Shown piece by piece: positions 11,054-64,000 of a DNA stretch of 64,000 bases. A program made the translations under genes and the position numbers. The notes below the pieces were generated by a model, which saw only the letters and a program-made list of their open reading frames with translations, was not told the origin of the DNA and did no database searches. Numbering within the stretch: the stretch's first letter is position 1; the number at the start of each line of letters is the position of its first letter. Origin of the DNA: Pristiophorus japonicus (lineage: Eukaryota); the NCBI RefSeq assembly GCF_044704955.1, contig NC_091983.1, positions 22,754,001-22,818,000 on the forward strand, in the 5' to 3' direction.

Positions 11054-11257
11054 TGTTGCGTATGCAATAACTCAATAGGCTTAGTAGCATGAACTCAATC
11101 AGGTGTGACCTGACTCTACTTTCTTAGCTCTCAAAGTGAGGATTAAATATGGAGGCTTTCTTTATATACAAGGGCTGCACGTGTGTGTCTGTGGCCCAAT
11201 GACCTCCGACGGTTGCTTCCCCTGGTGGCAAGTAAACCCAGGTATATATACATTACA
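11054..11257 (-). repeat. 3' LTR of outer Gypsy
   Basis: Direct repeat of 19841-20044; adjacent to the polypurine tract. Confidence 0.93.
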
Positions 11258-11293
11258 TCATTCCCCCGCCCAAGACCTTGGTATCAGTCCTAT

Positions 11294-14200
11294 TTACAAA
11301 TTGAGACGGTCCGGGGCTTTCCGCTCCCTAGTTGATCGTCTCAGTTCAATTCCAGATCTGGGTGAGCTCTCCGAGTCATTCATGACTTGAGGATGGGTAG
11401 CCGATCTAATGGGAGTGACAGTGTCCATGTCGGGGATTGAAGGTCCAGATTCATTGACAACAGCAGGGTCTTCTGATGGCTGAATATGAATCGGTTGGTC
11501 ATTGATGGTGTCTTCTTCAAGCTGTTCCGGTTCATCTGTGTGCCGCAATTTCGTCTGATCAATATGCCTCCTGCATGTTTGCCCGTTAGTGAGCCTGGCA
11601 TTAAGCACCCTGTTACTCTCCTTGGCCGTAACAGTGCCAGTGACCCACTTGGGGTGTTGACCATAATTTAGCACATACACTGGATCATTAATAGAGATGT
11701 CGCGTGACACGGCAGTGCAATCATGATACCACTGCTGATGTTGACGTCTGTTTTCGACGTGATCGTTAAGATCAGGGTCGACAAGCGAGAGCCTGGTCTT
11801 GAGACCTCTCTTCATCAACAGTTCAGCAGGGGGGACCCCAGTAAGAGTGTGGGGTCTTGTCCTGTAACTAAGCAGTATGCATAATAATCGAGACTGCAAA
11901 GAACCGTGAGTTACACGTTTCAGGCTCTGCTTGATGGTTTGGACGGCCCACTCCGCTTGACCATTGGACGTGGATTTGAATGGTGCTGACCTTACGTGCT
12001 TGATACCATTGAGTCTCATAAACTCTTGAAACTCCAAACTCGTGAAGCACGATCCGTTATCGCTCACAACAATGTCGGGCAGACCATGAGTGGCGAACAT
12101 GGCACAAAGGCTCTCAATGGTGGCTGTAGATGTGCTGGATGACATGATTACACATTCTATCCATTTGGAATGCACATCCACCACCACCAAAAACATTTTG
12201 CCCAGGAAAGGACCCGCGTAGTCGATGTGGATCCTCGACTATGGTTTGGATGGCCATGACCACAGACTTAGCGGAGATTCCACTGGTGCATTGCTTAATT
12301 GCATGCAAGTGTTGCACTGATGCACACATGACTCCAAATCAGAGTCAATGCCAGGCCACAAAATGTGAGACCTAGCAATGGCCTTCATCATCACAATATT
12401 GGGATGGGTACTGTGTAAATCCCGTACAAATCTCTTCTTGCCTTTCTTGAGCATAACAACACGATTACCCCACAGCAAATAATCGGATTGAATGAATAGT
12501 TCATCTTTGCGATGGTTGTAAGGTTTGCTCTCATCACACACTTCCCTGGGAATGGTCGGCCAATCACCACTAATGACACAACATTTTACAACGGATAAGA
12601 TCGGATCCTGGCTGATCCAGGTCTTAACTTGTTGAGCAGTGACAGGCGACACTTCACTCTCCAAAGGTATCCATGACCAACAGTAGGTCTGCGGGCTGTG
12701 GCGTTTCCACCTCCGGCGTGGACAACGGTAAATGGCTCAATGCATCGGCACAATTCTCGTTGCCAGGTCTATGGCAAATGACATAATCATAGGCAGATAA
12801 TGTCAGCGCCCACCTCTGGATGCAGGACCAATGCGTTGGTATTGATACCTCTATGCTCGGAAAACAAAAATATGAGCGGCTTGTGATGGGTTTCAAGCTC
12901 GAAACGATGCCCAAACAGACACTGGTGCATCTTTTTAACCCCATATATGCAGGCTAAAGCTTCTTTCTCTACCATGCCGTAGGCTCTTTCTGCTTTAGAC
13001 ATGCTTTTCGACGAGTACACAAGGGTTGTAGTTTTCCCGACTCATTGGATTGTTGGAGCACGCAACCAACCCCATGTGATGAAGCGTCATAGGCCAATAC
13101 TAAACGCTTGCACAGGTCATAATGTACCAGCAATTTGTTGGAACAAAGCAGATTTCCAGGCTTCTCGAAGGCCCTGTCTTGAGATCCACCCCAAACCCAG
13201 TTGTCGCCTTTTCTGAGCAGCATGTGCAGTGGCTCTAATAATGTGCTCAATTTAGGTAAGAAATTACCGAAGTAGTTGAGAAGACCAAGGAACGAACGCA
13301 GCTCCATCACATTCTGGGATCTGGGTATGTTTTTGATGGCCTCTGCTTTCGAGTCCGTAGGTCTGATGCCGTCTGCAGCAATCTTCCTTCCCAAGAATCC
13401 AACTTCCAGTGTCATGAAGACGCACTTTGAACGTTTCAGCCTGAGCCCCACTTTGTCCAGATGACGTAGAACTCTTCCAGGTTGTGCAGGTGTTCGGCAG
13501 TGTCACAACCTGTGACCAGAATGTCGTCTTGAACACCACGGTTCAAGGACAGACTTCAGTAAACTCTCCATGTTTCTCTGAAATATGGCTGCAGCCGAGC
13601 GAATTCTGAAAGGACACCTGTTGTAAATGAACAGCCCTTTTTGTGTATTGATGCACGTAAGTTTCTTCGACAATTCAACAAGCTCCTGTGTCATATAAGT
13701 TGACATCAGATCCAATTTGGTGAACGACTTTCCCCCTGCTGAACAGGTCATCAGCCTTTGGTAACGGGTACTGATCCTGTTTCAAAACTCGGTTGATCGT
13801 AACCTTGTAGTCTCCACAAATCCTGACAGTGCCATCACACTTCAGCACAGGAACAATGGGACTAGCCCATTCGTTAAATTCGACCGGTGAAATGACCCCT
13901 TCACGTTGGAGTCTGTCCAGTTCAATTTCAACCTTCTCCCTCATCATGTACGGGACCGCCCGGGTTTTGTGATAGATGGGTCTTGCATCCGAGTCCGGGC
14001 GGATCTGTACCTTGGCTCCCGTGAAGTTGCGATGCCCGGTTCAAACAGCGAGGGAAATTTGCTCAGCACTTAACAAAGCTTTAATATTGTTCCAGTTCCA
14101 CTTGATTTTTTCGAGCCAATTTCTGCCGAACAGCATTGGACCATTGTCTGGAACGATCCACAGCGATAGATCATGAATCGCCCCATCGTACGACACCTTG

Positions 14201-15227
14201 ACTGGTATGAGCTCTTTGGTGTAGGTACGCAATTTTGCATTTACTGGACTCAGCTTGGGTTTCACGGCCTTGGTGTCCCATAGCTTTTCGAAAGTCCTCT
14301 GGCTCATAATTGACTGACTCGCACCCGTGTCTAATTCCATAGATACCGGCACGCCGTTCAATTTTACTTCAATCATTATTGGTTGGCTCTTTGTCAGGAA
14401 CAAAATGACACTATACACTTCCTCCTCGGGTATCTTAGATGCATTGCCAGATCCGCTCCGGATCGGTCATCATCATCCACGTGGTGTGCCGCAGCACACT
14501 TGCTGAGCTGCAGACACATCCGCTGAAGGTGCCCCATTTTCGCACAGCCTCTACAAATATACTGTCTGAAACGGCACTGATGAGTCCGATGATTGCACCC
14601 ACAACGACAACAGGTTGAAATCGGATTTGTACCCAATGGCGGACTTCGAGCAGTTACAGGTTTCGCAAACACAGTCGGGTAGGCCCTGCCAGGTGCTGCT
14701 CTGCCAACCGACGACACAATCTGGTGCACAGTACTTGCCGTGGAGTTTCGACTCTGCGAAGATATCTGCTTTGTACTGTCGACCGTGGTCAGGCAAGCCT
14801 GAGCGATCGTGATGGCCCTGCCCAGATCCAGCATCTCCGCAGCCAGCAGTTTACGCAGGATCACCTCGTGGTTTATGCCTATTACAAAGACGTCGCGCAG
14901 CATGGCTCTCAACGCGGTTCCAAACTTACACGGCCCAGCGAGACGTCTCAGGTCGGCAGCAAATTCCGCCACGTCCTGACCCTCAGAACGAACATGCTTG
15001 TAAAAGTGATATCTCGAGTTAATGGTGCCTTCTTTAGGTTTGAGTTGGTCCTGAATCAGAGCACACACACAATTCCTCATAGGTCTTTTCCATTGGACCT
15101 GCAGGTGAGAGCAGATTCTTTATAAGGCCATAGATTTTTGGACCACAAACCGTGAGGAAAACCACCCTGTGCCTAACTGCATCAGCGTCTTCATCCATCT
15201 TGTTGGCCACGAAGTACTGGTTGAGGC
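11294..15227 (-). pseudogene. Gypsy gag-pol of outer element (zinc knuckles, protease LDTGA, RT, RNase H, integrase), frameshifted
   Basis: 'CRGCAKMGHLQRMC', 'MELDTGASQS', 'WASPIVPVLK.DGTVRICGDYK', 'AYDASSHGVGCVL', 'IVVSDNG', 'RRSTRERKAPDRLNL'. Confidence 0.93.
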
Positions 15228-18200
15228 TGTTACATTCATAATAAATGGTCAGACTGAGTACTGTGTGCAATGAGCAAGTGTGACCTTAGCTCCTTTATTG
15301 TAGTTCCAGGTGCAGGTACCTTGTGGGTGGCCTGCTTATATTCTGTGCTCCCAAGGGATGCTGGGATCCCTTGGACTCCAACAGATAGGCCCTCTGGTGG
15401 ACAGGTGTGATGCAGGTTACAAGGGGTTAAATAGATAACATCACTCCCCCGTGAAGTCAACAATACACGTATTTACAAGGTGAGACGATCTGGGGCTTTG
15501 CGCTCCCTTGTTGACCGTCTCGGTACAAATGCTGGTGTGGATGAGTTGGTTAGTTCTTCACTGGGCTGTTGGGCAGCTGGCCTTGCTGAGCTGCTGGGGA
15601 TGATGAGTTCTGTTTCGTGGTCAATTGTGATGTCAGTTGTCACTTGTGTGTGTGTTGGAAGGTCAAAGTTGGTGGTGTCCTCTTCAGGTTGAACGTAGCT
15701 GTTGGTGAATCGCAGTTTAATTTGGTCCAAGTGTTTTCTCTGCGTTTGTCCATTGGCGTCAGTTTGACCTGAAATACCCTACTCCCCTCTTTGGCTGTGA
15801 ACGTGCCAGCGAGCCATTTGGGACCATGTCCATAATTGAGCACAAACACAGGATCATTGATCTCAATATCGTGTGACAAGTTTGCGCTGTCATGGTACAC
15901 ATTTTGTTGATGCCGCTTGTCCTCCACGTGATCATGTAGATCAGGATGGACCAGAGAGAGCCTTGTTTTAAGTGCCCTCTTCATGAGCAGCTCGGCTGGG
16001 GGAATCCTGGTGAGTGAGTGGGGTCTGGTGCGGTAGCTGAGCAGTACTCAGGACAACCGGGTCTGCAGGGAGCTTTCCGACATGCGTTTCAAGCTTTGCT
16101 TGATGGTCTAGACTGCCCGTTCTGCCTGGACGTTGGATGCGGGCTTGAACGGCGCAGATGTGACATGTTTGATCCCATTGCGGGGTCATGAATTCTTTGA
16201 ATTCGGCATTGGTGAATCACGGCCCATTGTCGCTGACTAGGACATCGGGCACGCCGTGCATGGCAAATATAGCTCGTAGACTTTCAGTGGTGGCCATGGA
16301 TGTGCTGACAGACATTATTGCACATTCAATCCACTTTGAGTAGCATCCATGACAACCAAAAACATTTTGCCTAGGAATGGGCCCGCATAGTCTACATGGA
16401 TCCTCGACCACGGTTTGGATCGCCAGGACCACAAACTTAGTGGTGCCTCTCTGGGTGCATTGCTCAACTGAGAACAAGTGTTGCACTGGCGCACACATGA
16501 CTCTAAATCTGAGTTGATCCTCGGCCACCGCACATGGGATCTGGCTATCACTTTGATCATCACGATGCCTGGGTGGGTGCTGTGCAGTTCGCAAATGAAT
16601 GTGCCTCTGCCTTTCTCGGGCAAGACTACACGATTGCCCCACAAAATACAGTCTTCCTGCAGGGACAGCTCATCTTTGCATCTGTGGAATGGCTTAGTCG
16701 CTTCCTGCATCTCCAATGGGACACTGGACCAGCTATCATGGAGGACACAGTTTTTTACCAGGGAGTGTAAAGGATCCTGGTTGGTCCAGATCCTGATCTA
16801 GCGGGCCATAAGGGGGATTTCACGTTCTCAAATGCCTCCATGACTATGAGCAAGTCCTCTGGCTATGCCATTTCCACCCCGGTGGTGAGCAATGGTAGCC
16901 GACTAAGAGCATCTGCACAGTTCTCTGTGCCCGGGTTACATCGTTGTATGCTGACAGCGTGAATGCCCATCTTTGGATGCGAGCAGGTATTAATCACTTT
17001 GCTCTCCGAGAATAGTGATATGAGCGGCTTGAGGTCAGTTTCAAGCTCGAACTTGAGGCCAAACAAGTACCGGTGCATTTTCTTTACCCTGTAAATGCAC
17101 GCCAGAGCCTCTTTTTTAACCATGCTGTAGGCCCTTTCGGCCTTGGACAAACTCCTGGATGCATACGCAACTGGTTGCAAAATTCCCGATTCATTAGCCT
17201 TTTGTAACACACACCCGACCCCGTATGACGACGCATCGCAAGCTAGCACTAATCATTTACAAGGGTTATACAGGGCAAGCAGTTTGATCGAACACAATAA
17301 ATTTCTGGCTTTCTTAAAGGCAGCCTCTTGTGAATTCCCCCATACCCAGTGGTCTCCCTTGCGCAGTAGCGCATGCAGGGGTTCTAGCAGGGTGCTTAAC
17401 CCAGGTAGGAAATGACCGAAGTAGTTAAGGAGTTCCAGGAACGACCGCAGTTCCATCACGTTCTGTGGTCACAGCGCGTTCTTGATGGCTTCCGTGTTAG
17501 CATCGGTGGCTCTGATGCCGTCTGCTGCGATTCTTCTTCCTAAGAATTCGACGTCCTGTGCCAGGAAAACACACTTTGAGCATTTCAACCTGAGTCCCAC
17601 GTGATCCAACTGACTAAAAACCTCCTCCAGATTCTTCAAGTGCTCCATGATGTCCCGACCTGTAACCAATATGTTGTCCTGGAAAACCACTGTACAAGGA
17701 ATCGATTTAGCAGGCTCTTCACGTTCCGTTGGAAGATTGCTGCGGCCGACCGAATCCTGAACGGGCACCGGTTGTAGATAAACAGACCTTTGTACATGTT
17801 GATGAGGGTGAGGCCTTTTGAAGACTCCTCCAGCTCCTGCGTCATGTAGGCCGAGGTCAGGTCCAGTTTGGTGAATGTCTTCCCTCCAGCCAGGGTCACG
17901 AATAGGTCGTCTGTCTTGGGTAGCGGGTATTGGTCCTGCAGCGAAAAACGGTTAATCGTTACTTTATAGTCCCCGCAAATTCTAACCGTACCGTCCTCCT
18001 TGAGTACCACAACAATCGGACTGGCCCAGTCATTGAATTCCACCGGCGCAATACTGCCTTCACATTGCAGCCTGTCCAGCTCGATTTCTACTTTTTCACG
18101 CATCATGTACGGTACCGCCCGAGCTTTGTATTGGATAGCTCATGTACCTGGAACCAAATGGATCTGCACTTTCGCCCCTGAGAAGCTTCCAATGCCTGGC

Positions 18201-19742
18201 TCAAATAACAAAAGGAATTTTCTTAGAATCTGGGTACATGCAGTGTCGTCGACAGACAAAAGCGCTGCCGATTTTCCCCAGTCAGCTTCTGCCAAACAAG
18301 GTGGGGCCATCCCGTGGCACAATCCACAGCGGGAGTTCATGTACTGATCCATCATAGGAGACTTTGACTTCAGCACTGCCAATTACAGGGATTAGTTCCT
18401 TTGTGTAAGTCCTTAGTTTGGTGTGAATGGGGCTGAGCTTGGGCCTGTGTACCTTCTTCCCCCACAGCCGGTTGAAGGCCATTTTACTCATTATGGACTG
18501 ACTTTCCCCCATGTCCAGCTCCATAGACACTGGAATACCGTTCAATTCAACTTTCAACATTATTGGTGGACATTTCGTCGTGAACATATGTATCCCGTAC
18601 ACCTCTGCTTCCTCGGTGCAAGTCTCCAATTCCATCTGATCAACTGTGGACCGATCTTCCTCTGCAACTTGGTGGTTTGCAGGGTTTGCAGCTCGCCTGC
18701 ACATTCGTTGAAGATGTCCCATTGTTCTGTAGCCATTGCATGCTTACTGCTTAAAGCAGCATTGATGGGGCCCTTGACCCCTCCCGCAGCGCCAACAGGG
18801 TGTTAACTGCCTTGCATTAACAGATGACGGCGGACGCTGGGTCAATTGAGGTCGGGCCACAGCAGCCGGCGTGTACGTTCTGCCCTGTACATTTCTGCTC
18901 AAAACCGACGTTGCTTTATGCACAGTACTGGCCGAAACTTCTTTATTCTGCAAAATCTGCTTGGTGTTGTCGCTGGTGGACATAAATGCTTGGGCTATCG
19001 TCATGGCTTTACTCAGATTCAGAGTCTTTACATTGAACAGTTTGCGAAGGATTGTCTCATGTCCGATGCCCAGTACAAAAAAGTCTCTGACCATTTGTTC
19101 TTGGAATCCTTCAAACTCACAATGCCCTGCAAGGCGCCTTAGTTCGGCGATGTAGCTCGCCACTTCCTGGCCCTCCTGATCGTTGACACGTGTAGAACCG
19201 ATATCTCGCCATCAAAACACTTTCCTTAGGATTTAGGTGCTCCCAGACCAGCGTACACAGTTCTTCGTAGTATTTTTCTGTTGGTTTAGCCGGGGCCAGG
19301 AGATTCTTCATGAGGCCATAGGTTCTTGCCCCACAGACAGTTAGGAGGATCGCCCTTCTTTTGGTCGCATTCTTGTCCCCTTCCAGCTCATTGGCCACGA
19401 AGTATTGGTCAAATCGCTCTACGAAGGCCTCCCAATCGTCCCTCTTTGAGAACTTGTCCAGGATGCCGACTGTTCTTTGCATTTTCACGTGGTTATTTGT
19501 TACCTCATCGCCAATTGTTACATTCATAATAAATGGTCAGACTGAGTACTGTGTGTAATGAGCAAGTGTGGCCTTAGCTCCCTTATTGTAGTTGCAGAGT
19601 GCAGGTACCTCGTGGGTGGCCTGCTTATATTTTGTGCTCCCACAGGATGCTGGGATCCATTGGGATTCCAACAGGTAGGCCCTCTGGTGGACAGGTGTGA
19701 TGCAGTTACATAACGGAGACATAAGGGGTTAAATACATAATG
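15228..19742 (-). mobile_element. Gypsy (Mag-like) LTR retrotransposon, inner element nested in outer gag
   Basis: LTRs 15228-15440 and 19516-19742; PBS 'tggcgatgagg'; PPT 'gggggagtga'; TSD gaggc/gagac. Confidence 0.95.
15473..19482 (-). pseudogene. Gypsy gag-pol of inner element, frameshifted
   Basis: 'MQRTVGILDKF..DDWEAFVERFDQYFVAN', 'FTKLDLTSAY', 'VVFQDNILVTG', 'ACDASSYGVGCVL', 'HSTHPGIV', 'RRSTRERKAPDRLTL'. Confidence 0.93.
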
Positions 19743-19840
19743 GAGACGAGCTATAAAATCCCTCAACGAATCGCTTCAGGATTCCAACAGTGATCATTTT
19801 TTTTTGTGTGTGAAAGTTCGTATTGTGCCTCATCGCTAAA

Positions 19841-20044
19841 TGTTGCGTATGCAATAACTCAATAGGCTTAGTACTGTGAACTCAATCAGGTGTGTCCTGA
19901 CTCTACTTTATTAGCTCTCAAAGTTAGGATTAAACATGGTGGCTTTCTTTATATACAAGGGCTGCACGTGTGAGTCTGTGGTCCAATGACCTCTGATGGT
20001 CGCTCCCCCTGGTGGCAGGTAAACACAGGCATACATACATTACA
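19841..20044 (-). repeat. 5' LTR of outer Gypsy
   Basis: Repeat of 11054-11257; PBS adjacent. Confidence 0.93.
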
Positions 20045-20775
20045 AAAAAACAGGCCAATTTGAGGGGAAAATCCTGGAAATTCCTCTCCAACTCATCTAA
20101 GCGATCAAAACTAGTCCAGGAGATCACTCTGGCCCTGAATTCCCTGCACTACCTAACTTCTGCAAGAGGTGATCTCTGCCCCAGGCAGAAACAGGTCCAG
20201 CTCTCGCTTGAAGGAATTCAGCGAATCAGCATCCACCGCCCGAGACGGCAGCCTGTTCCAGAGGCCCACTATTCAAGAGGGAGTTAGATATGGCCCTTAC
20301 GGTTAAGGGGATCAAGGGGTATGGAGAGAAAGCAGGAAAGGGGTACTGAGGGAATGATCAGCCATGATCTTATTGAATGGTGGTACAGGCTCGAAGGGCC
20401 GAATGGCCTTCTCCTGCATCTATTTTCTATGTTTCTATTTTTCTATTCTCTGGGAAAAGAGCCATCTCCAGACATCTAACCTAGATCTGGCAACTATACA
20501 ACTTAAATTTGTGACCCCTGGTCCTCTCTAACCTATTTAATTGGAACAAAGTGGAACACAATCTATTACCTTCATTATCTTATAAACCTCTATCAGATCA
20601 CCCCTAAGTCTATGCTTCTCTAAAGTGTAGAGTCCCAACTCCTTTAGCATATTCCTGATAACTAAGATGCTTTTTACTGGGAATTAGTCTAGTGGCCTGC
20701 CCCTGCACCCGTTCCAAAGCCTCAATATCACCCACCATGTGAGGAGACCAAAACTGGACATAGTATTCCAAGTAA
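20045..20775 (-). mobile_element. CR1-like LINE 3' portion (continues at 10950-11053), hosting the Gypsy pair and a small + strand CR1 tail (20273-20446)
   Basis: 'YLEYYVQFWSPHMVGDIEALERVQGQATRLIP'; UTR similar to 37780-37930. Confidence 0.75.
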
Positions 20776-21918: not shown

Positions 21919-22280
21919 TGGGGGCAATACTGAGAATGCTATACCTTGTGCCAGCCTTTTGCATGATGGTGCTGTGGAGGAGACAATTGATTCGACGTCA
22001 TCGCATTAGGAACCTCAGAGTGCATAATGTGATGGGCAGGCGGCCTTAACCATGTCAGGTCTATCGAGACAAGCGTTCACACCTGCACCTGAGTGAGGCA
22101 GACAGTGTCAGAAGGCTGTGTTTCCACAAAGAAGTTGTAACCGAGATCTGTGAGTTAGTAAAAGCAGACCTGCAACCTAGAAGCATCAGGAAGACTGCTT
22201 TGTCAGTTGAAGTGAAGGTTACAGCTGCACTTTCATTCCATGCATCTCGATCGTTCCATGCTACAACTGGGGATGCGGTA
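21919..22280 (+). pseudogene. HARBI1-like transposase N-terminal remnant
   Basis: 'RRLCFHKEVVTEICELVKADLQPRSIRKTALSVEVKVTAALSFHAS' then truncated. Confidence 0.8.
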
Positions 22281-22649: not shown

Positions 22650-24570
22650 CTTATTGTAAGACTGCCCACTGCTCTTGGACTTGCTGACTTCACTCCAGCC
22701 CACAGGCAGTGGCGCAGCGTTTCTTGGGTTGGTACCAAGCTTATTCTTTCAAACATCTCGGGTAATACGCACTTCTTGATGGTGGCAGGGTGGGGGGTGG
22801 AGTGGGGGAGGGGGGGTGCGGGGTTTGGCAGTCAGTAATGTGGAAGGGGCCCGGCTTGGGCCTCTTCAGAGGATGGTCTGGGGATTGGAGTGGGAGAGGC
22901 AGTTGATTCTCTCAAAGGGTGCGAGTCTTAGCGACTTCCCTTATTGCAGCCAGCAACTCCAACTTCTCAACTACCTCCAACATTCCCTCCCTCATGTGCC
23001 CTGACAGTGTCTCAACTACCTCCAATATTCCCTCCTTCATGTTCGCCGACAGTGTCTCACCTACCTGTGACATGCCCTCCCTCATGTTAAGCAAAAGTTT
23101 CTCAACTACCTGTGCCATTCCCTCCCTCATGTTCACTGACAGTGTTTGAACTACCTGTGACATTCCCTCCCTCATGTGCACAGATAGCGCATCAGCTACC
23201 TGCAACATTCCCTCCCTCATGTGCCCGGACAGTGTTCCCGTTTCTCATGAGAGTGTTGTTACTTCTCCCGACAGTCCCAACACCTCATCACCCACTCTAC
23301 TGATGGTGTCCAGGAGTGATCGGTTAAGGCCAATGCTCTCCGCACTCATTGCCATCATCTGTGAATCACATCTTTTAAATCCTGCACCTCAGGAGAGCGC
23401 TGTCGAGCTCTCCTTCCCCTCCTCATCCTGGGTGTGGCTCACTTCGTCCCACTGGGACCCGTAGCCTCGGACGGTGGGGCCCTGGGTGTGCCTTGCTGCA
23501 TCCCACTGAGACCCGCAGCCTCAGACGGTGGAGCCCTGGGTGTGCTTCGCTGCACCCCACTGGAACCCCCAGCCTCGGACAGTGGGAAACCATGGATTGT
23601 CCCACCAATACTCAAACCACCACTCAGGGAAGGGGCTAGGTCCTCAATGGGTGGCACATGCACCTCCCCCAAAGTGAGTACAACAGTGGGGACTTCATCC
23701 ATCCCCTCACCCTCCCTCTCCCCGTCATCCCCATGCTCTTGGTCTGGAAGGTGGGATTGGAAGATATTCTCCTCTTAAGGCTCCTTCTCATCTGAATCTT
23801 CTTCTGCGTCGTCAAGGTTGGCCTCAAGTTTTGCAAAATATAACAGAACAGACAAATGGTTAGTAGCAGAGGAGGGGGCAGGGTGGGTGGCATGAGTAGG
23901 CTCACACAGCGCAGGCAGCAGGCTGATTTGAAGGACCCGGATGAATAGCACATTGCATCAACCGAAGCGTAGCTGACGGAGACATCCCCATGAACCGAAG
24001 CATGGCTAGCCCGCATAGTACTTAACATTCAGCAAAGCCAGACTGTGGAATTTGCAGGACTTACCCTCTCCCTTGAGTGTGGGTCCAGCTTGTGCAGTGG
24101 TGGTTGCTTTTCTCCAGGTAGGACCCATCAAAACAGTGACCCTCTCTTCCAAGTGTGTCAGTGGGTGCAGATTTTCCAGGCCTCCTCCTGTTCGAGTTCT
24201 TTCTCATTTGTTGTGTGCCACCTTCCTCTGCAAAGATGAAAATATAACTTTTTAGAGAGGGTGTCTTTCTGCTGGGTGGAACATATACAAATGGTTTCAT
24301 TTACAATTGCAATTCCATTGAAAAATGAAAATGTTTGCACTAACTACTTGACCGAGGTCTTGCCACTTCTTTGTGCTCTGGTCTTCAGACCTTGGGGTCG
24401 CCAACATTGTAGTAATCCTGTGCAAGTTGGTTCCAGCGTTTCTTCAGTTCTTTGGGGGGAACTTTTATGTGACCTCTGCTGGTGTTCAGCTCATGCTATC
24501 TGGCCTCAATCACAGTAACTAGTACCTCCACTTCATCCTGTAAGAAATTCTTGGTCCATGCGCTTCTTGT
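22650..24570 (-). pseudogene. Harbinger Myb/SANT-like DNA-binding partner gene, three exons, degraded
   Basis: Exon 1 'TKNFLQDEVEVLVTVIEAR...KKRWNQLAQDY...KKWQDLGQVV'; exon 2 at 24065-24227 with AG/GT 'RKVAHNK*ERTRTGGG'; exon 3 acidic with tandem repeats. Confidence 0.82.
22965..23235 (-). repeat. 45-bp coding tandem repeat, about 6 copies (MREGMxxVxxxLSxx)
   Basis: 'cattccctccctcatgt' recurs every 45 bp. Confidence 0.9.
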
Positions 24571-27082: not shown

Positions 27083-28460
27083 TGTCATGTATCCTACATG
27101 GTTACTGCTTGTACCATTACAAGGTGTGCCACCAGAGGGCACTGCAGTGGGAGACTTGTAGGTTACCTGTACAGGTGTGCCAGGCCTAGTATAAAAGGCA
27201 GGCCACCAGGTGTGATCCTCACTCTGGAGTTACATTGGCCCCAAGTTTCCACATGATTTGCGCTTGATTTTTAGGAGCAACTGGTGGAGAACGGATTATC
27301 TTAAAAATCACAATTCTCCACATTTTTTTTTCTGCAGTTCTAGTCCATTAGAACAGTTTCACTTTGGAACAGAATTTTTTCTTCAAAAGGGGGCGTGTCC
27401 GGCCACTGACGCCTGATTTCAAAGTTTCCACAGTAAAAACGTACTCCAAACTAACTTAGAATGGAGCAAGTGAAGATTTTTGTAGAACTGAAAAAACCTG
27501 TTCTACACATTAAAAAATCAGGCGCAGGTTACAAATTAGGCGTCCAGAACGAGGTGGTGGGGGGGGGGCGGGGGGGGAGGGGAAGGGAAGTTATTCAATT
27601 CTATAATAAATCTTTATTTATACTTATACAAATAAATCCAACCTGAATAAAAATTTATAAGCAAAGAAAAGATTAAATAAACCATCTTCCTACCTGTGTG
27701 AAAGTGCTTCAGCCAGGGAGAATTCTGCAGGAAGCCTCACAAGTTGAGGCAGCCGTTCCCGACGGTGGGCGGGGTGGACGGGGGGTGGGGGGAGGGAGGG
27801 AGTGCAGGCCCGACCGACCGAACGAACGCAGCGGGGGGGGAGGAAGCCGTTCCAGACGGCGGGGGGGGGGGGGGGAAGGAGACAGTGAGAAGGCTGCAGG
27901 AAGCCTCACAAGTTCAGCAGCCATTCCCGACGGCAGGGGGGGGAGGCCATCGGGAAACGGCTGCCTCAACTTTCTGAGGCTTCCTGCAGCCTTCTCACTG
28001 CTGCAAGAAGCCTCAGTGCTGATGTGCTGATGGCAATGTGCTTTTATTAAAAAATGTTCTAAAATTAAACAGCTACAAAGAACTACAAAAATGGCCGAGT
28101 GCCAATGTTTCCTTCACACTGCGCGTGCGTGAACGCTCCAACGCGCACGCGCAGGGTTGCCGGCAGGAAAAAAACTAATTTAAATGGTACCCGCCCCCTC
28201 CCACTTACAAAATCGGCGCGAGTGTAGGCTCCGCCCCCCTGGGCGCCGCGCCAAGCAGACAAGGAGCTGCAGGGCGCTCCAGAATCGCGCGTTTTTTTTC
28301 CGGCGCCGTTTTCGGCGGGTAAAACGGGCGCCCAGCTCGGAGGGGCGCCCGTTTTGTAGCGTGTGGAAACTTGGGGCCATTAAATGGACTAAGGTTATTA
28401 CAGTTCAAGCACAACACATTGTCTCGGGGAATCATTATTAGAGCATCTGAAGACATAACA
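27083..28460 (+). mobile_element. Gypsy-type solo LTR with 5-bp TSD GCTGT, interrupted by a MITE
   Basis: TG..CA ends; GCTGT at 27078-27082 and 28461-28465; TATAAAA at 27190. Confidence 0.85.
27237..28378. mobile_element. Harbinger-type MITE (D), 17-bp TIR, TSD ATT
   Basis: ggccccaagtttccaca / tgtggaaacttggggcc flanked by ATT on both sides. Confidence 0.9.
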
Positions 28461-28474
28461 GCTGTGATGCTCGT

Positions 28475-29039: not shown

Positions 29040-29248
29040 TCTGTTTCCTTTAGAATAACTCCACAAGACTATATATCTTAAGCTCAAACTGTTGTGACCT
29101 TGGTCTCTTTATTGTAACTCCAGAGTGAAGAGGCAGCATGGTAGACTGTCTTTAATACCTGCTTGCCCGGGGTGTGCAGGTGACCCTTGGGTCTCCCACA
29201 GTTGCGCCCCCTGGTGGCAAGTCTTACACATTGTTTACATACATAACA
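29040..29248 (-). mobile_element. Gypsy-type solo LTR
   Basis: Reverse polyA signal tttatt and 'gtaactccagagtg' shared with 45806-46105; ends ataaca; imperfect TSD acaca/acacc. Confidence 0.7.
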
Positions 29249-45805: not shown

Positions 45806-46105
45806 TGTTATGTCTGTAATGTACCTATGAATGACTCCACGAGGCAATGTGTTGTACTCAAACTGTAGTGACCTTGGTCCTTTATTCGTAACTCCAGAGT
45901 GAGGCAGCCGCATGGTGGCTATTCTTTTATACAGCCTCTGCCACCAGGGCAGGAAAACCCATTCTCCACCAGTTGCACCCTCTAGTGGTGTCAGCATAGT
46001 ATAAGTATAAACCTTATTGATAGGACATCAGGTAAACAAGTCTCCATCTTATTCAACTATACAGTGACTACACAGAGAGTATATCTATAGTCTGCATATA
46101 TAACA
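45806..46105 (-). mobile_element. Gypsy-type solo LTR (300 bp)
   Basis: TG..CA ends, TSD caaac/caaaa, reverse TATAAAA and AATAAA. Confidence 0.82.
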
Positions 46106-46277: not shown

Positions 46278-46382
46278 GAACAACGTGCTCTGTGAACATA
46301 AATGAGTGCTACTCTGAGCCTTGCTTGCATGGTGGGACCTGTGTTGACCTGATCAATCGGTTTGAGTGCATCTGCCTTTATG
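46278..46382 (+). CDS. Internal exon of a host gene encoding a calcium-binding EGF-like module (EYS/Crumbs/Notch-type)
   Basis: Polypyrimidine tract + TAG acceptor, G|GTAAG donor, 105 bp phase 1-1; (G)[34 protein letters not shown](G). Confidence 0.9.
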
Positions 46383-47983: not shown

Positions 47984-48450
47984 TATTATATATTTAACCC
48001 TTTGTAACCTGCATCACACCTGAGCACCAGAGTGCCCACCTGTTGGAGTCCCTTAGGTGTACAGTATATCAGCAGGCCACCCACGAGGTACCTGCACTCT
48101 GGAATCTTAATAAAGGAGCTAAGGTCACACTTGCTCATTACACACAGTACTCACATGATGAGACTAATAGAGCAAATATATTCAGAGATAATGAAAAGGC
48201 GATGTTTTGTATATGCAATGAAGATGATATCCTGGTTTTGGTGAGTTAAACTCTGTTTTTTCCATTTGATCGGATTGGGCTGGATTTTCTTGCGTACAAA
48301 TTGCGGTTCACCAACAGTTACGAACAACCCGAAGAGGACACCACCAACTTTGACTTTCCAACACACACATACAAGTGGCAACTGACATCATAGTTGAGCT
48401 CGAAACCAAACTCATCATCCCCAGCAGCTGTTGGTGAACTGCAATTTCCA
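47984..48450 (+). mobile_element. Scrambled fragments of the inner Gypsy family (partial LTR, integrase tail)
   Basis: 47984-48152 resembles the reverse complement of 15260-15440; 48297-48430 resembles the reverse complement of 15590-15720. Confidence 0.8.
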
Positions 48451-56810: not shown

Positions 56811-57064
56811 ACTGTCAGTAATGCGGTTGCGAAGGGCAGCGCTCAGCTTAATCATTCACATGGGGTTGGTGTCGCTGAAGTAATGGAGTAAAGTTTGAAT
56901 GCAGAGAAAATTGCTTATTTTCACCCTGTTATCATGCCAGGTTTGACTCTCTGTCATCATCAACTCAGAATGGAGGGTCCGATTTCCCGTGGAGGCTGGT
57001 TCAACATCATTGGCAGATATCAGTTTAAAACTCTGATCTATTTTTATATTTGACATTTCTGAAT

Positions 57065-57435
57065 TCATAGAATCATAGAAACATACAGCATAGGAGGCCA
57101 TTCGACTCATCGTGCCTGTGCCTTTTGAAAGAGCTCTCCAATTAGTTAGTCCCTGCTCTTTCCCCATGGTCTTGCAAATACTTCTCCTTCCAAGTACTTA
57201 TTCATTTTACTTTTGAAAGTTATTATTGAATCTGCTTCCACTGCCCTTTCAGGCAGTGCATTCCAGATCATAAACAATTTTTGTTTTAAATTCTCTTCTC
57301 GCCTCTGGTTCTTTTGCCAATTACCTTAAATCTGTGTCCTCTGGTTACCGACTGTCCTGCCATTGGAAATAGTTTCTCCTTATTTACTGTCCGAGCCCCT
57401 CATCATTTTGAAAACCTCACCGTAACTTTCTCTGT
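57065..57435 (-). mobile_element. CR1 3' fragment
   Basis: Reverse tail 'catagaatcatagaa' and CR1 UTR. Confidence 0.8.
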
Positions 57436-57787
57436 TGTTTGGGAATTTTCTTCTTCTTCTCCAATTTTATTGGTTTGAGGAAAATTTCAACGCTTCATCA
57501 ATTTCAAGTGTTTACCTGGAGTGTTTCTGTGGATATGTGGGAGTGGGTGTGAGTGAAACATACACCACATTAGCAGCATAAGGTTAATAACAAAACCAAA
57601 ACCCGATTTGATTGATTAACTGGACTAGTTGAAATAACATAGAAAAAATGCTTCAAAAGACTTGAGGAAATGCAAAGCATAAGAAAAAAGCAAGACTTGC
57701 ATTTGTATAGCGTCTTTCACGACCACTGGAAGTCTCTAAGCGCTTTACAGCCAATGAATGTACAATGTATTCACTGTTGAAACATCT

Positions 57788-58485
57788 AGGACTGTATTTT
57801 CAGCTCTTCTCGCCTTTGCTTGTGCCCTGGCGGGGTGGTAAATGCAGTTTCTGGGCGTAATGCCGGGCATCCAGGAATTACCGCCCGGCCAGTAGATTCA
57901 GCTACTGGTTAGCGTCAGTGCAAAAACTTACCGCCCCCGGTCCATTTTTAGCATGATGAAGATTTCAATTGTCATGTAAAGTTGCACCGGTGCCCTGGAT
58001 GGAAATTTCAGCCTTAATGCCTCATTTAACTCCCGCCCCAGAAAACGCCTGAACAAACCAGGCGGTCCCAGGGTGCAGCAGGCGCTATTGGCAGCATATG
58101 TAAACGGAGGCTGGAGGATCTTATATCGCAGTTGTCAGTAATTGCCACAGTTGCGCGCAGAACTCTGCGTGAGGCTCCAAGTTGCGACCTTTTATGTGCC
58201 GTGACACTTCGCTTACGAGGTCAGTGAGAGGTTTGAATCGGGTCGATATTAGTTTGCCAGTGTATCATGCTGGTTGCTATTGACGGGCGGCTTCAAGCTG
58301 GAAGAAGGATTTTTGGCCATGTCGGGCCACGGATTAGAAGAGGTCGCAGATGTCTGGAGAGGAGGCCGTACCACTCACTGGTTTACAGGGACCATCGCTC
58401 ATAGCTCCAGCTCTCTGAGGCGCGGTGCCTTTTAGAAGGTTGTGCTTCCAAAAGGAAGTGCTGACCGAGATATGCCAGATCCAAA
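57788..58485 (+). mobile_element. Harbinger left arm (G) with HARBI1 N-terminal remnant, truncated by CR1
   Basis: 'ggactgtattttcag' end; repeated accgccc motifs; 'RRPYHSLVYRDHRS..RLCFQKEVLTEICQ'. Confidence 0.72.
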
Positions 58486-58489
58486 AGCC

Positions 58490-60635
58490 AGTTTAACAGA
58501 CTTTCAGCACCAATATGACATTTTAGAGACCGCATTGATGAACTACAACAATTGTACATCCCTGTCTGGCTAAAAATTAAAAAAAGGGAAGGTGGCTCAA
58601 CCGTGGCTATCAAAGGAAATCAGGGATAGTATTAAAGCCAAGGAAGTGGCATACAAATTGGCCAGGAATAGAAGCGAACCCGAGAGCTGGGAGAAATTTA
58701 GAACTCAGCAGAGGAGGACAAAGCGTTTGATTAGGGCAGGAAAAAGAGAGTACGAGAGGAAGCTTGCAGGGAACATTAAAATGGACTACAAAAGCTTCCA
58801 TAGATATGTAAAGAGAAAAAGGTTCGGAAAGACAAACGTAGGTCCCCTGCAGTCAGAATCAGGGGAAGTCATAACTGGGAACAAAGAAATGGCAGACCAA
58901 TTGAACAAGTACTTTGGTTCGGTATTCACTAAGGAGGACACAAATAACCTTCCTGATATAAAAGGGGTCAGAGGGTCTAGTAAGAAGGAGGAACTGAGGG
59001 AAGTCCTTATTAGTCGGGAAATTGTGTTGGGGAAATTGATGGGATTGAAAGCCGATAAATCCCCAGGGCCTGATGGACTGCATCCCAGAGTACTCAAGGA
59101 GGTGGTGGAATTAACGGATGCATTGACAGTCATTTTCCAACATTCCATAGATTCTGGATCAGTTCCTACGGAGTGGAGGGTAGCCAATGTAACCCCACTT
59201 TTTTAAAAAAGGAGGGAGAGAGAAAACAGGGAATTATAGACCGGTCAGCCTAACATCGGTAGTGGATAAAATGATGGAATCAATTATTAAGGATGTCATA
59301 GCAGCGCATTTGGAAAGAGGTGACATGATAGGTCCAAGCCAGCATGGATTTGTGAAAGGGAAATCATGCTTGACAAATCTTCTGGAATTTTTTTAGGATG
59401 TTTCCAGTAGAGTGGACAAGGGAGAACCAGTTGATGTGGTGTATTTGGACTTTCAGAAGGCTTTCGACAAGGTCCCACACAAGAGATTAATGTGCAAAGT
59501 TAAATCACATGGGACTGGGGCTAGTGTGCTGACGTGGATTGAGAACTGGTTGGCAGACAGAAAGCAAAGAGTAGGAGTAAATTGGTTCTTTTCAGAATGG
59601 CAGGCAGTGACTAGTGGGGTACCGCAAAGTTCTGTGCTGGGGCTCCAGCTGTTTACATTGTACATTAATGATTTAGACGAGGGGATTAAATGTAGTATCT
59701 CCAAATTTGTGGATGACACTAAGTTGGGTGGCAGTGTGAGCTGCGAGGAGGATGCTATGATGTTGCAGAGTGACTTGGATAGGTTAGGTGAGTGGGCAAA
59801 TGCATGGCAGATGAAGTATAATGTGGATAAATGTGACGTTATCCACTTTGGCTGTAAAAACAGAGACTGACTATTATCTGAATGGTGACAGATTAGGAAA
59901 AGGGGAGGTGCAACGAGACCTGGGTGTCATGGTACATCAGTCATTGAAGGTTGGCATGCAGGTACAGCAGGCGGTTAAGAAGGCAAATGGCATGTTGGCC
60001 TTCATAGTGAGGGGAGTTGAGTACAGGGGCAGGGATGTGTTACTACACCTTTACAGGGCTTGGTGAGACCACACCTGGAGTATTGTGTACAGTTTTGGTC
60101 TCCTAGCTTGAGGAAGGACATTCTTGCTATTGAGGGAGTGCAGCGAAGGTTCACCAGACTGATTGATTCCCGGGATGGTGGGACTGATATATCAAGAAAG
60201 ACTGGATCAACTGGGCTTGTATTCACTGGAGCTCAGAAGAATGAGAGGGGATCTCATAGAAACATTTAAAATTCTGACCGATTATACAGGTTAGATGCAG
60301 GAACAATGTTCCCAATGTTAGGCAAGACCAGAACCAGGGGTCACAGTCTAAGGATAAGGGGTAAGCCATTTAGGACCGAGATGAGAAGAAACTTCTTCAC
60401 CCAGAGAGTGGTGAACCTGTGGAATTCTCTACCACAGGAAGTTGTTGAAGCCAATTCACTAAATATATTTAAAAAGGAGTTAGATGTAGTCCTTACTACT
60501 AGGGGGATCAAGTGGTACAGCGAGAAACAGGAATGGGATACTGAAGTTGCATGTTCAGCCATGAACTCATTGAATGACGGTGCAGCCTCGAAGGGCCGAA
60601 TGGCCTACTCCTGCACCTATTTTCTATGTTTTTAT
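58490..60635 (+). mobile_element. CR1 LINE ORF2 (RT) and 3' end
   Basis: 'PWLSKEI', 'KSPGPDGLHPRVLKE', 'YLDFQKAFDKVPH', 'FVDDTKL'; same family as 3519-4592. Confidence 0.94.
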
Positions 60636-60993
60636 GAGTCCCCAACAAAGGATGATTGCAAGGAAATTCACATCTTGTTGGTGTTGTGGTGGTTTCCATT
60701 CAGCCTATTCATGCCGCTTCAAAGGGTATGTTTGCAAGAGCTGTGGAACAATGGGGCACCTCCAACGAGCTTGCAAATGTGCTGCAAGCTCTGCAAAACC
60801 TGCTAACCACCACGTGGCAGAGGAAGATCAGTCCATGGTGGATCAAAGCAATTGCGAGCCTCCGAGAGAGGAGGCAAATGCTGAACTACATGGGGTGCAC
60901 ACATTTGACGAAATGTCCACCTATAATGCTAAATTTTAAATTGAATGGCTTACCCATAGCCATGGAACGGGACACTGGCGCTCGCCAATCCAT
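60636..60993 (+). mobile_element. Gypsy gag zinc-knuckle/protease fragment
   Basis: 'SCWCCGGFHSAYSCRFKGYVCKSCGTMGHLQRAC', 'MERDTGARQSI'. Confidence 0.85.
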
Positions 60994-61317
60994 AACCCCT
61001 TATTTCCTTATCGTTTAAGAAACTGTCTATTTCTGTCTTAAATTTATTCAATGTCCCAGCTTTCACAGCTCTCTGGGGCAGCGAATTCCACAGAGTTGCA
61101 ACTCTCAGAAGAAATTTCTCCTCCTCTGTTTTAAATGGCCCCTTATTCTAAGATCATGCCCTCTAGTACTAGTCTCCCCCATCAGTGGAAACATCCTCTC
61201 TGCATCCACCTTGTCAAGTCCCCTCATAATCTTATACATTTCGATAAGATCAGCATTCATTCTTCTGAATTACAATGAGTAGAGGCCCAACCTACTCAAT
61301 CTTTCCTCATAAGTCAA
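60994..61317 (-). mobile_element. CR1 3' fragment
   Basis: Near copy of 10155-10475. Confidence 0.88.
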
Positions 61318-61594
61318 TACACCGGTCATACGTTCCCTCCGATGTAAATCTTTTCTCCTTGTACTGTGGATGGTTCAATTCTTCAGTTTACTCAGAAGAT
61401 CACTGTCAATTTCCACCGCTGCCTCAGTGTGTTCCCTATTAAATTAATGCCTGACTGCACCAGCCACTATATTTGTATGACAAACTGCAATTTGCAGGAA
61501 GCTTCGGCTTTAGAGATTCCATCAGCTTCTGCCGCCAACATGGAATAAACGGCGAGTCCGGCTACACCCAAGCCATTGCACCGCGTGGATTTTG

Positions 61595-61895
61595 AGCGTG
61601 AAGGGGACTGTTCTGTCGCATGAGACATTAAACCGAGGCCCCGTCTGGCCCCTCGGGTGGACGCTAAAATGATCCCAAAGCACTATTTCAAAAAGCAGTG
61701 TACTTCTCACCATTGTCCCACAAGGGTTATTCGTCATTTATCTCATTGGTTGTTTGTGGGCTCTTGCTGTGTGCCAATTGGCTGCCGTGTCTAACCTGCA
61801 TTACAACAGTGGCTACTGTTCAAAAGTATTTCATTCGTTGCAAATTGCCTTGGGACGCCCTCTCATTGTGAAAGTTGCTGTATCAAATTCAAATT
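61595..61895 (+). mobile_element. Deu-domain SINE fragment
   Basis: 'atgagacattaaaccgaggccccgtctggcccctcgggtggacg'. Confidence 0.75.
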
Positions 61896-62282
61896 CTATC
61901 AAGTCCTGAAATCGCAACATATAGATGAGCAATGCCATGTGGCCCACTTTTGCTGAACTGAACAGAGAAACAGCTATATTCCAAGCCTCTCCTGCCCCTT
62001 ACAGCATCCAACTCGCTGTTCAATCACCTACACTGCCAGGCAAGTTCTTCCAGGCAACGTCATCCTTGACCAGGATGAACCGGTGCGCCCTTGTCCACCA
62101 CCATTACACCTTTCTGTTAAGTAGTGCTTTGGATTCACACAAAACAAATAACGATCAAGTTATATTGCAGGAATTTGCTTGGTGGTCATCGGGCATCGTG
62201 GGATAATTTCTATTCTTTTCATTAACAGTTGGATGTAATGGGCGGGAGAGGCATGGACTGTAGGGGCTGGATTTTGGGCTTT

Positions 62283-62519
62283 TGCAATTTCATGGCATTA
62301 ATCGCAGCAGGGCGGTAAAGATACTGCCTGAAAATAGTTCGCTGCCCCAGAGAGCTGTGAAAGCTGGGACATTGAATAAATTTAAGACAGAAATAGACAG
62401 TTTCTTAAACGATAAGGAAATAAGGGGTTATGGGGAGCGGGCGGGGAAGTGGAGCCATGATCTCATTAAATGGTGGAGCCATATGGCCTACTCCTGCTCC
62501 TATTTCTTATGTTCTTATT
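62283..62519 (+). mobile_element. Harbinger-like left end (62283-62345) joined to a CR1 tail (62346-62519)
   Basis: 'ggggctggattttgg' TIR-like start; CR1 'RAVKAGTLNKFKTEIDSFL' and tail. Confidence 0.6.
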
Positions 62520-63431
62520 GTGTCGGAAAGCAAGACCTTTGCTTCTCTCTCTCAAAGCAGCATTACTGCAGAGGTGGAGAATGAACCTAAAAACCTTTTT
62601 GGGAAAACGGTGAAGCAATTGTTTTGTTTGAAACCCTTGCTTCCAGAATATATTAGCTGCATCCCAATGGATTAGGTGTGAAATAGCAGGACAGTTAGAA
62701 ACCTTGTGTCCCAATGTTATTGATACAAAGCGATGCACTGTGCTACTGCCATCAATTTACCTAAACAAACCTGTTACTGTGACTGTCAAATGACAGCTTG
62801 GTAAAAGATGGATGAAAACAGGTTGCAGTAACAGCTGTCGAAAATCACCAATGCTACTCTGCAAATTTGTCAGGGGAAATAAGTAAGAGTACGAGCCATC
62901 TAACGCTTTGTTACAACCTTGAAATTGCATCTCCTTCCCTGTTCAGAACTAAGAGGGGGGCGCACGCATTATTGAGTGGCGGTAAGTTGCTCTAAGCTGT
63001 TTTCCACGAGTACATGCTATCCCTTACCGTCCAGTGTTAACGATGCAAATTCCATTAAACCAAGCTGGGCTTTCCATTTGGTGTTAGTTTAATTGAGTTA
63101 GCATAGCTCTTTAATGTCGCTTGTTGCAGAATGACGAGGAATACGGAGTCCACCTACTCCTTGGAAAGTGAAGTCCTGATTTTCCCTACCTGGGTGGGTC
63201 CAGTCCCAATGGGGTCTGTGGGGGGGGCACGAGGCCATTGCTGCCTGCATCCAGCTTGCAAAATAAAGACTTTCCCATGATGGGATGTTAAACCCGCCCA
63301 GGGTGTTACCCAGCCCAAATGATAATGTGCAGGTCTGGTGACGTCAGCGCTGGAGCGTTTGGTGCCGGTATATTTAAAGGGGCCATGGCCACATTACATT
63401 TGAAGATTCATCCAGGAGTGTGGAAGCTAGT

Positions 63432-64000
63432 TATTGTGTTCCGAACACAGATGAGGCTGCACACAGGGAGGTTAAAGTAACAGTGACCTCAGTCTTTAAT
63501 AAGACACTCCAGAGTGAAGAACAGGCCTTAGAGGCTGGCTTATATACAATGCTCCCAAGGGATGTTGGGATCCCTTGGGACTTCAGGGGATGAGCTCCCT
63601 GGTGGCGGAACATGGGCGTGCATGCTTTACAGATGCACAACATCACTCCCCCGTCAAAGTCAAAGTGAAAACTATTTACAAGGTTAGTCGGTCGGGATCC
63701 TTTCTTTCCCTGGTGGACCTCCTTGTTACAAATGTCTGTTCTAGTGTGTTGGCTATGCCCTCGCTGGGCTTGCATGTTGTTGGCCCTGCAGGGCTGCTAG
63801 GTGAGCCTGGCCTTGCTAGGATTTTGGGCGTGATGGGTTTGATTTCCTGGTCCGGGGTGGTGTCGTTGATCCTTTGGGTGTGTGTTGTGGGTTTGAAAAA
63901 GGTGGTGTCTGCTGTGGGTTGTTCAGGGCAGTCTGTGAACTGCAGCCTCGTTTGGTCCAGGTGCTTTCTGCAAATTTGTCCATTGTCTAGTTTGACTACA
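63432..64000 (-). mobile_element. Gypsy element 3' LTR (63432-63642), PPT and integrase C-terminus; continues beyond the window
   Basis: PPT 'tcactccccc'; reverse frame 'RRSTRERKDPDRLTL*'. Confidence 0.88.

What the first reader, a model, noticed from the sequence alone, without database searches (positions are those of the whole stretch)
11215..63606. CTCF-consensus motif fixed about 50 bp upstream of the TATA box in different LTR families
Seen on the LTR sense strand: CCACCAGGGGGCGC (29204-29219), CCACCAGGGGGAGC (20001-20016; variant 11215-11230), CCACCAGAGGGCAC (27127-27142), CCACCAGAGGGCCT (15387-15402, 19677-19692), CCACTAGAGGGTGC (45975-45988), and weaker CCACCAGGGAGCTC (63592-63606). 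Orientation and spacing to the TATA box are the same although the rest of the LTRs barely align. Established: this matches the CTCF core consensus. Inference: these retrotransposons carry their own insulator or promoter element and scatter oriented CTCF sites; there are about 8 in this 64 kb alone, which could shape chromatin loops across a giant intron.
Basis: partly seen in the sequence, partly recalled or inferred. Interest (0 to 1): 0.75.

Follow-up and report, generated by a model that had tools for sequence, protein, structure and literature searches.

The report
CTCF motif in vertebrate Gypsy LTRs
Jumping genes of one Ty3/Gypsy group carry a match to the binding site of the chromatin protein CTCF at a fixed place near the start of their terminal repeats, in this genome and in relatives that group with fish elements but not in their other relatives, so these elements likely use CTCF to run their own promoter, although binding has not been shown.

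Summary
All eight sites are real. They lie on the LTR sense strand, starting 57-61 bases before a TATA-like box. The LTRs are not unrelated families: all six lineages align outside the motif (15 of 15 pairs), so the shared spacing is inherited. The motif is still their most conserved window.

A test blind to the motif widened the result. Among relatives picked by integrase alone, 7 of 7 families that group with fish elements carry the motif 28-44 bases inside the LTR, against 0 of 42 others and 0 of 35 loci in a second set. The fish LTRs do not align with these LTRs, lack the TATA spacing, and fall in three further integrase groups.

After insertion the motif decays like the rest of the LTR (4/42 against 49/545), so host use for intron loops is unsupported. 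Best reading: a CTCF site selected for the element's own promoter.

No ChIP data were found, and hosts are inferred. Transposon-borne CTCF sites are known; my ten searches found no report of this pattern, nor had the scan noted it elsewhere.

The parts
19841..20044 (-). 5' LTR of element A (TG...CA, 204 bases), followed by a degenerate primer-binding site; motif 20002-20015 (20.2 bits, +29 from LTR start)
11054..11257 (-). 3' LTR of element A, after a polypurine tract; 91% identical to the 5' LTR; motif 11215-11228 (17.1 bits, one change against the 5' copy)
11258..15227 (-). Internal region of element A: broken gag, protease, RT, RNase H, integrase (Ty3/Gypsy order); its gag start lies at 19743-19840
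   Evidence: Pfam RVP, RT_RNaseH, Integrase_H2C2, rve; sequence
19516..19742 (-). 5' LTR of element B, which is nested in the gag of A with a 5-base target duplication (one mismatch); motif 19677-19690 (12.4 bits)
15441..19515 (-). Internal region of element B, broken gag-pol, 66% identical to A over 3.7 kb
15228..15440 (-). 3' LTR of element B, about 93% identical to its 5' LTR; motif 15387-15400 (10.6 bits)
27083..28460 (+). Solo LTR D with a perfect 5-base target duplication, interrupted at its poly(A)-signal region by a 1142-base element with terminal inverted repeats (27237-28378); motif 27129-27142 (21.5 bits, +46)
29042..29248 (-). Solo LTR C (target duplication 4 of 5); best motif, 29204-29217 (24.1 bits, about +31)
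45815..46030 (-). LTR E (5' end uncertain, may reach about 46105; no target duplication found); motif 45975-45988 (15.3 bits)
47984..48155 (+).
63455..63642 (-). 3' LTR F after a polypurine tract; its integrase tail runs to the window end; weak motif 63592-63605 (9.3 bits); 3' end of the LTR not fixed
46278..46382 (+). Host exon, 105 bases, AG...GT, encoding one EGF-like domain; the only EGF-pattern exon found in the window; gene not identified

Best explanation
These are related LTRs of K02A2.6-like Ty3/Gypsy retrotransposons that carry a CTCF-type motif near the 5' end of U3, likely a true CTCF site that selection on the elements themselves has kept because it would open or activate their own promoter. 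Steps: (1) shown: the motif is in 9 of 9 LTR copies here (one decayed), sense strand, 57-61 bases before TATA in 8. (2) Shown: it is the best-conserved block between lineages but decays at background rate after insertion. Inferred from this: the constraint acts while the element is copying itself, not on the resting copies. (3) Shown: the same motif, strand and place occur in non-alignable LTRs of three other integrase groups whose named relatives are fish elements, and not in other relatives. (4) Inferred: the partner is a host factor of these animals, CTCF. (5) Inferred: with TATA at about -30 the motif centre is about 80-85 bases upstream of the start site, on the sense strand. In mouse cells CTCF activates promoters directly from about that position in forward orientation. 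(6) Side effect, untested: each new insertion drops oriented CTCF motifs into the host genome, most of which are probably methylated and unbound.
For: Top window of 199 across six lineages, 0.79. Conservation follows CTCF information content, rho 0.66, p 0.002. In public runs laid on 19500-20060 (3 of 4 runs gave records), the only listed variant inside either motif is a G/T change at the position where the CTCF matrix allows G or T: 21% of depth in X5, 17% in X8, 0.2% in X1; 40 rows shown, 7 hidden. Sister copies also stop matching exactly at the motif's 5' edge (50 records in X1, 8 in X5). Blind set: 7 of 7 fish-grouped families positive, 0 of 42 others, 0 antisense hits, among 49 evaluable of 56 families. 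Second set: 0 of 35 evaluable of 47 loci, its three hits lying outside LTRs. Shuffles of the positive LTRs reach 9 bits in at most 22 of 2000. Fish neighbours: herring protein in the 90% cluster of L030, shad and cod in that of L043, conger 71% to L038, Acnodon 77% to L086. Literature, passages read: lamprey CTCF ChIP enriches two LTR/Gypsy families, odds ratios 58 and 24 (PMC5504073). Forward CTCF a median 79 bases upstream of the start site activates mouse promoters (PMC12695661). [quoted passage not shown]
Against: No binding data for this organism. The matrix is recalled from memory. The start site is inferred, not mapped. The fish LTRs have no TATA-like box 57-61 bases after the motif (0 of 7), so the activator geometry is shown only for this clade. 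Several motifs are modest (B 10.6-12.4, F 9.3, L086 9.9). In the L018/L023 family only the 5' LTR variant has it. Two loci from records of symbionts of a tubeworm and a clam (L103, L115), whose hosts should have CTCF, lack it, so 'host has CTCF' is not sufficient. Hosts of most negative loci are not labelled, and their LTR starts are lower in G+C (median 0.36). No conserved upstream (M2) half-site was seen by eye. In mouse IAP LTRs most motif-bearing copies are not bound (PMC7898769). The paper's 'forward' is assumed to be the JASPAR strand; the passages read cite JASPAR but do not spell this out.
Confidence: 0.58

Rival explanations
1. The site is bound by CTCF but works as a barrier at the outer edge of the element. 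It would keep flanking methylation or heterochromatin out of U3, or dock host enhancers through cohesin, rather than activate directly. This is not exclusive of the best reading.
For: The feature shared by all four integrase groups is distance from the LTR 5' end (28-46, or 52 in one copy with an insertion; E uncertain), not from TATA. Mouse IAP LTRs have the motif at the 5' end of U3, with binding inverse to methylation (PMC7898769 passages).
Against: The two LTRs of one element give same-direction sites, which by the convergence rule (established knowledge) would not close a loop around the element. In this clade the spacing to TATA (57-61) is tighter than the spacing to the LTR end (29-52).
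Confidence: 0.2
2. The conserved block serves something other than CTCF: another zinc-finger factor with an overlapping site, or a signal used in reverse transcription or integration near the U3 end.
For: It lies close to the polypurine tract and the LTR end. Binding has not been tested. Two relatives from probable invertebrate bilaterian hosts lack it.
Against: A signal for the element's own enzymes should be shared by all relatives with similar pol, yet 42 of 49 families and 35 further loci lack it. Variation between lineages falls mostly on CTCF's tolerant columns. The variants with TAG at positions 5-7 (E, L030, L038, L068) fit CTCF and not the ZIC-type site (recalled).
Confidence: 0.12
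3. The host has co-opted these copies as CTCF anchors that shape loops across the long introns of the EGF-repeat gene.
For: Nine motif-bearing LTRs in 64 kb in both orientations, five of them strong. Repeat-borne CTCF sites act as barriers in mammals (PMC3368268 passages).
Against: After insertion the motif changed at 4 of 42 sites against 49 of 545 elsewhere in the LTR (p 0.79); G has decayed and A3 has lost a core G. Most motif-bearing IAP copies are unbound. [quoted passage not shown] The test has low power and cannot exclude one or two co-opted copies (C and D are solo LTRs and could not be tested).
Confidence: 0.08

Closest known systems
Lamprey LTR/Gypsy repeats #743 and #697 (Kadota et al. 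2017, PMC5504073; passages with Table 3 read, supplement unreadable)
   Same: Gypsy-class LTR elements of a non-mammalian vertebrate whose copies overlap CTCF ChIP peaks (96 of 166 and 137 of 359 copies).
   Different: The passages read give no motif position, no clade and no comparison across hosts. Whether those repeats belong to this clade could not be checked, and the supplement may bear on it.
Mouse IAP LTRs (PMC7898769; passages read)
   Same: CTCF motif at the 5' end of U3 of an LTR; binding is inverse to methylation.
   Different: IAPs are endogenous retroviruses; only about 10% of their LTRs carry the motif. Here it is in every copy of the clade and recurs in non-alignable LTRs of several Ty3/Gypsy lineages.
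Mammalian SINE-borne CTCF sites, e.g. rodent B2 (Schmidt et al. 2012, PMC3368268; passages read)
   Same: A retroelement spreads CTCF motifs through the genome.
   Different: Those are non-LTR elements with occupancy and barrier function shown; here there is only sequence evidence, and it points to a use by the element's promoter.
Promoter-proximal activating CTCF sites of mouse genes (PMC12695661; passages and one section read)
   Same: Forward motif about 80 bases upstream of the start site (inferred here from TATA).
   Different: Those are host gene promoters tested by depletion and reporters; nothing was tested here, and the fish LTRs lack the same TATA geometry.
Bovine leukemia virus LTR CTCF sites (PMC8989512; abstract and outline read); Drosophila gypsy Su(Hw) insulator (recalled)
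   Same: An LTR element carries a site for a host insulator protein that affects its own transcription.
   Different: In BLV CTCF represses the 5' LTR and favours the 3' LTR. The gypsy insulator is a cluster for another protein outside the LTR (recalled).

Membership tests
Ty3/Gypsy LTR retrotransposon | pol order protease-RT-RNase H-integrase | tested here: met
   Pfam hits in this order in element A (RVP, RT_RNaseH, Integrase_H2C2, rve) and element B (Asp_protease_2, RVT_1, RT_RNaseH, Integrase_H2C2)
Ty3/Gypsy LTR retrotransposon | Direct LTRs with TG...CA ends, primer-binding site, polypurine tract, short target duplication | tested here: met
   A and B LTR pairs 91% and 93% identical; PBS-like and PPT sequences; 5-base duplications at B (4 of 5), C (4 of 5) and D (5 of 5)
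Mag clade of Ty3/Gypsy | RT or integrase groups with named Mag reference elements | not tested
   The label is recalled; no named Mag element was in the tree. Named relatives are annotated K02A2.6-like or Gypsy integrase-like
CTCF binding site | Core motif match | tested here: met
   9.3-24.1 bits, p 6e-5 to 2e-9 per site, matrix recalled
CTCF binding site | Variation concentrated at low-information columns | tested here: met
   rho 0.66, p 0.002 over 19 columns, six lineages; G/T variant at the G/T column
CTCF binding site | Upstream (M2) half-site, present in only part of known sites | tested here: inconclusive
   Looked for by eye in the alignment; no shared upstream word; no matrix was available
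CTCF binding site | Occupancy by CTCF in cells | not testable with these tools
   9 runs listed, none labelled ChIP, library descriptions blank
Host-co-opted CTCF anchor | Motif conserved above background in resting copies | tested here: not met
   4 of 42 against 49 of 545, p 0.79, three pairs only, low power
Host-co-opted CTCF anchor | Loop or domain boundary at the site | not testable with these tools
   No Hi-C contact data or genome held

The most novel reading that the evidence does not exclude
Separate Ty3/Gypsy lineages independently gained a forward CTCF site at the same place in U3 when they colonised vertebrates. The motif would then be a convergent host-adaptation signature of LTR elements and a long-running source of oriented CTCF sites in fish genomes. 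The four motif-bearing groups share no other LTR similarity, and the data reject one clade of all vertebrate-hosted lineages (AU p 0.010, group named after a first tree was seen).
Probability: 0.35. Interest if true: 0.75.

Novelty: new variant of a known kind. Interest (0 to 1): 0.55.

Why it matters
Transposons are known to spread CTCF sites, but why they carry them is open: passenger, host co-option, or benefit to the element. Here the motif is constrained between element lineages, decays freely in resting copies, and tracks the host group across non-alignable LTRs. That pattern favours benefit to the element and can be tested directly with existing fish and lamprey CTCF ChIP data. It also names a concrete source of oriented CTCF motifs in repeat-rich fish genomes.

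Tried and rejected
Chance match: rejected.

Convergence among the window's own LTRs: rejected, they are homologous.

Fixed distance to TATA as the general rule: holds in this clade only (0 of 7 fish LTRs).

Own genome: none held, so no genome-wide counts.

ChIP or RNA evidence: 9 runs listed, none labelled ChIP; no RNA holder listed. Run X9 laid 0 records. Depth from contigs was not used as copy number.

Absence of common variants in the motif within the family is not significant alone: about 1-2 would be expected per motif.

Viral collection: the single-protein query gave 0 loci; the alignment gave 16, of which 2 are relatives and were used; the tract-plus-motif pattern gave 2 matches, neither an LTR; the L086 query gave 1 weak match, not used.

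Three apparent positives in the second set (L114, L134, L142) lie outside LTRs. Seven of 56 families and 12 of 47 loci had no usable LTR sequence and were dropped.

Host gene: search with the 34-residue exon returned only generic EGF-repeat proteins, best 22 of 34 identical; unresolved.

Hosts of negative loci: cluster look-ups gave no organism names; the Atlas lead for a flanking NACHT protein was 'commonest Cnidaria' on 16 members, a lead only.

Two papers read for a definition of the Mag clade gave none. A zebrafish transposon epigenome paper does not mention Gypsy in its main text (PMC9341505); its supplements were not read.
Full report
Observation. All eight motifs are present within 1-2 bases of the stated coordinates and on the LTR sense strand. 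A degenerate pattern found 25 matches against 13.4 expected, and 0 of 100 shuffles reached 25. A CTCF matrix recalled from memory (JASPAR MA0139.1, not from a call) gave 4 hits of at least 16 bits against 0.45 in 60 shuffles. The five best hits in the window are in LTRs C, D, A5, A3 and E. The B pair (12.4, 10.6) and F (9.3) are modest.

What the LTRs are. There are nine copies from seven insertions. Element A (11054-20044, minus) has 204-base LTRs that are 91% identical. Element B (15228-19742) is nested in A's gag with a 5-base target duplication. Both have broken protease, RT, RNase H and integrase in Ty3/Gypsy order. The nearest named integrase is from hagfish (64%), and relatives are annotated K02A2.6-like; 'Mag clade' is my recalled label and was not tested. 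One EGF-type exon (46278-46382, plus) marks a host gene that I could not name.

The LTRs are homologous. They align at 64-73% between lineages, and with the motif left out 15 of 15 lineage pairs align (z 4.4-36). They share motif, TATA-like box (57-61 bases after the motif start in 8 of 9 copies) and poly(A)-like signal (101-105). Fixed spacing is therefore inherited. The motif is nonetheless the top window of 199 (0.79, against about 0.5 pairwise identity overall and 0.65 for the TATA window; windows past the poly(A) signal are understated because D was truncated there). Column conservation follows the matrix's information (rho 0.66, p 0.002).

Selection on the element or on the host. Differences that arose after insertion fall in the motif at 4 of 42 sites and elsewhere at 49 of 545 (three pairs, p 0.79). 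Constraint between lineages with none in resting copies points to selection during replication; the test is weak and says nothing on C and D. Public contigs laid on 19500-20060 gave 7344, 206, 71 and 0 records in four runs. They list no common variant in the B motif and one in the A motif, a G/T change at the column where CTCF accepts either base. Sister copies stop matching at the motif's 5' edge. Seven rows were hidden and this absence of variants is not significant alone.

Blind test in relatives. They collapse to 56 families at 85% identity, 49 with LTR sequence. Seven carry a sense-strand motif of 9.9-20.5 bits, 28-44 bases after the LTR start: L030, L038/40/43, L050, L068, L086, L088/90, and L018/23 in its 5' LTR variant only. 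The other 42 score at most 6.2, and no antisense hit reaches 9. All seven group with fish elements. L030's 90% cluster holds a herring protein and L043's holds shad and cod proteins; L038 is 71% identical to conger and L086 77% to Acnodon. L068 and L018 are placed by the tree only (SH-aLRT 85 and 91), and I labelled them after seeing it. The Fisher p of 1e-8 treats families as independent; the honest count is three groups in this set plus the window's clade. A second set of 47 loci, apparently host-animal DNA inside bacterial genome records, gave 0 of 35 evaluable, three hits lying outside LTRs. Some negatives group with sea-fan or anemone proteins, but most hosts are unlabelled. Two negatives come from records of a tubeworm symbiont and a clam symbiont (the clam link is recalled), so the pattern may be vertebrate-specific rather than CTCF-wide. 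The fish LTRs do not align with the window's LTRs or each other (z at most 4.0, mostly under 2) and have no TATA at 57-61. An AU test rejects one clade of the 27 vertebrate-hosted or vertebrate-grouped rows (p 0.010, short integrase alignment, group named after a first tree, window element B left out).

Mechanism. I commit to a CTCF site kept for the element's own promoter (0.58). With TATA at about -30 (general knowledge) the motif centre is about 80-85 bases upstream of the start site on the sense strand. In mouse cells CTCF activates promoters directly when bound forward a median 79 bases upstream (PMC12695661, passages and one section). A barrier role at the element's edge (0.2) fits the constant distance to the LTR end and the IAP precedent (PMC7898769, passages). 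Another factor or a replication signal (0.12) fits poorly with absence in most relatives. Host co-option for loops (0.08) has no support. Binding, start site and activity are all untested.

Known and new. Known: SINE-borne CTCF sites in mammals (PMC3368268, passages); the motif at the 5' end of U3 in about 10% of IAP LTRs, most unbound; CTCF ChIP enrichment on two lamprey LTR/Gypsy families (PMC5504073, passages; its supplement could not be read and may show motif positions); DNA transposons in zebrafish (PMC7182764, passages). Ten searches of the open library (listings only, and four of them aimed at background topics) showed no report of a position-fixed CTCF motif across vertebrate Ty3/Gypsy LTR lineages. 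Subscription papers, including shark and skate genome papers that I recall, were not seen. The scan's earlier notes hold no match to this, only a P element with CTCF-like sites.

Verdict. A real feature, a new variant of a known kind. Interest 0.55.

Noticed in passing
window 27237-28378: A 1142-base element with 17-base terminal inverted repeats and a 3-base target duplication sits in the poly(A)-signal region of solo LTR D; it looks like a non-autonomous DNA transposon.
   Followed up: partly
window 15228-19742 inside 11054-20044: Element B is inserted about 100 bases after the 5' LTR of its relative A, in the same orientation; both LTR pairs are about equally diverged (7-9%).
   Followed up: partly
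window 15347-15370 and 63553-63580: B-type and F LTRs carry a short inverted repeat (about 8-base arms) between the motif and the TATA box; C has a shorter palindrome there. Function not examined.
   Followed up: no
L043:640-3813: The 90% protein cluster of this element holds proteins named from shad (Alosa) and cod (Gadus), distant fish groups; this suggests horizontal transfer.
   Followed up: no
L098-L144: Forty-seven Gypsy-type integrase loci lie in bacterial and archaeal genome records of the genome collection, some on contigs of hundreds of kb or more; most likely host-animal DNA binned into these genomes.
   Followed up: partly
L018 and L023, contig starts versus 3' ends: Two LTR variants of one family: one has the U3 part with the CTCF-like motif, the other lacks that part.
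   Followed up: partly
L088:473-491 and L090:3641-3659: A second strong CTCF-like match (20.6 bits, sense strand) lies inside the coding region of this fish-type element.
   Followed up: no
window 47984-48429: LTR G is followed after about 140 bases by a piece of B-family integrase tail in the same orientation, with no second LTR: a rearranged remnant.
   Followed up: no
window 22919-23267: Tandem array of a 45-base unit, at least six copies.
   Followed up: no
window 5990-6008 (+): A 15-bit CTCF-like match outside any LTR found here.
   Followed up: no
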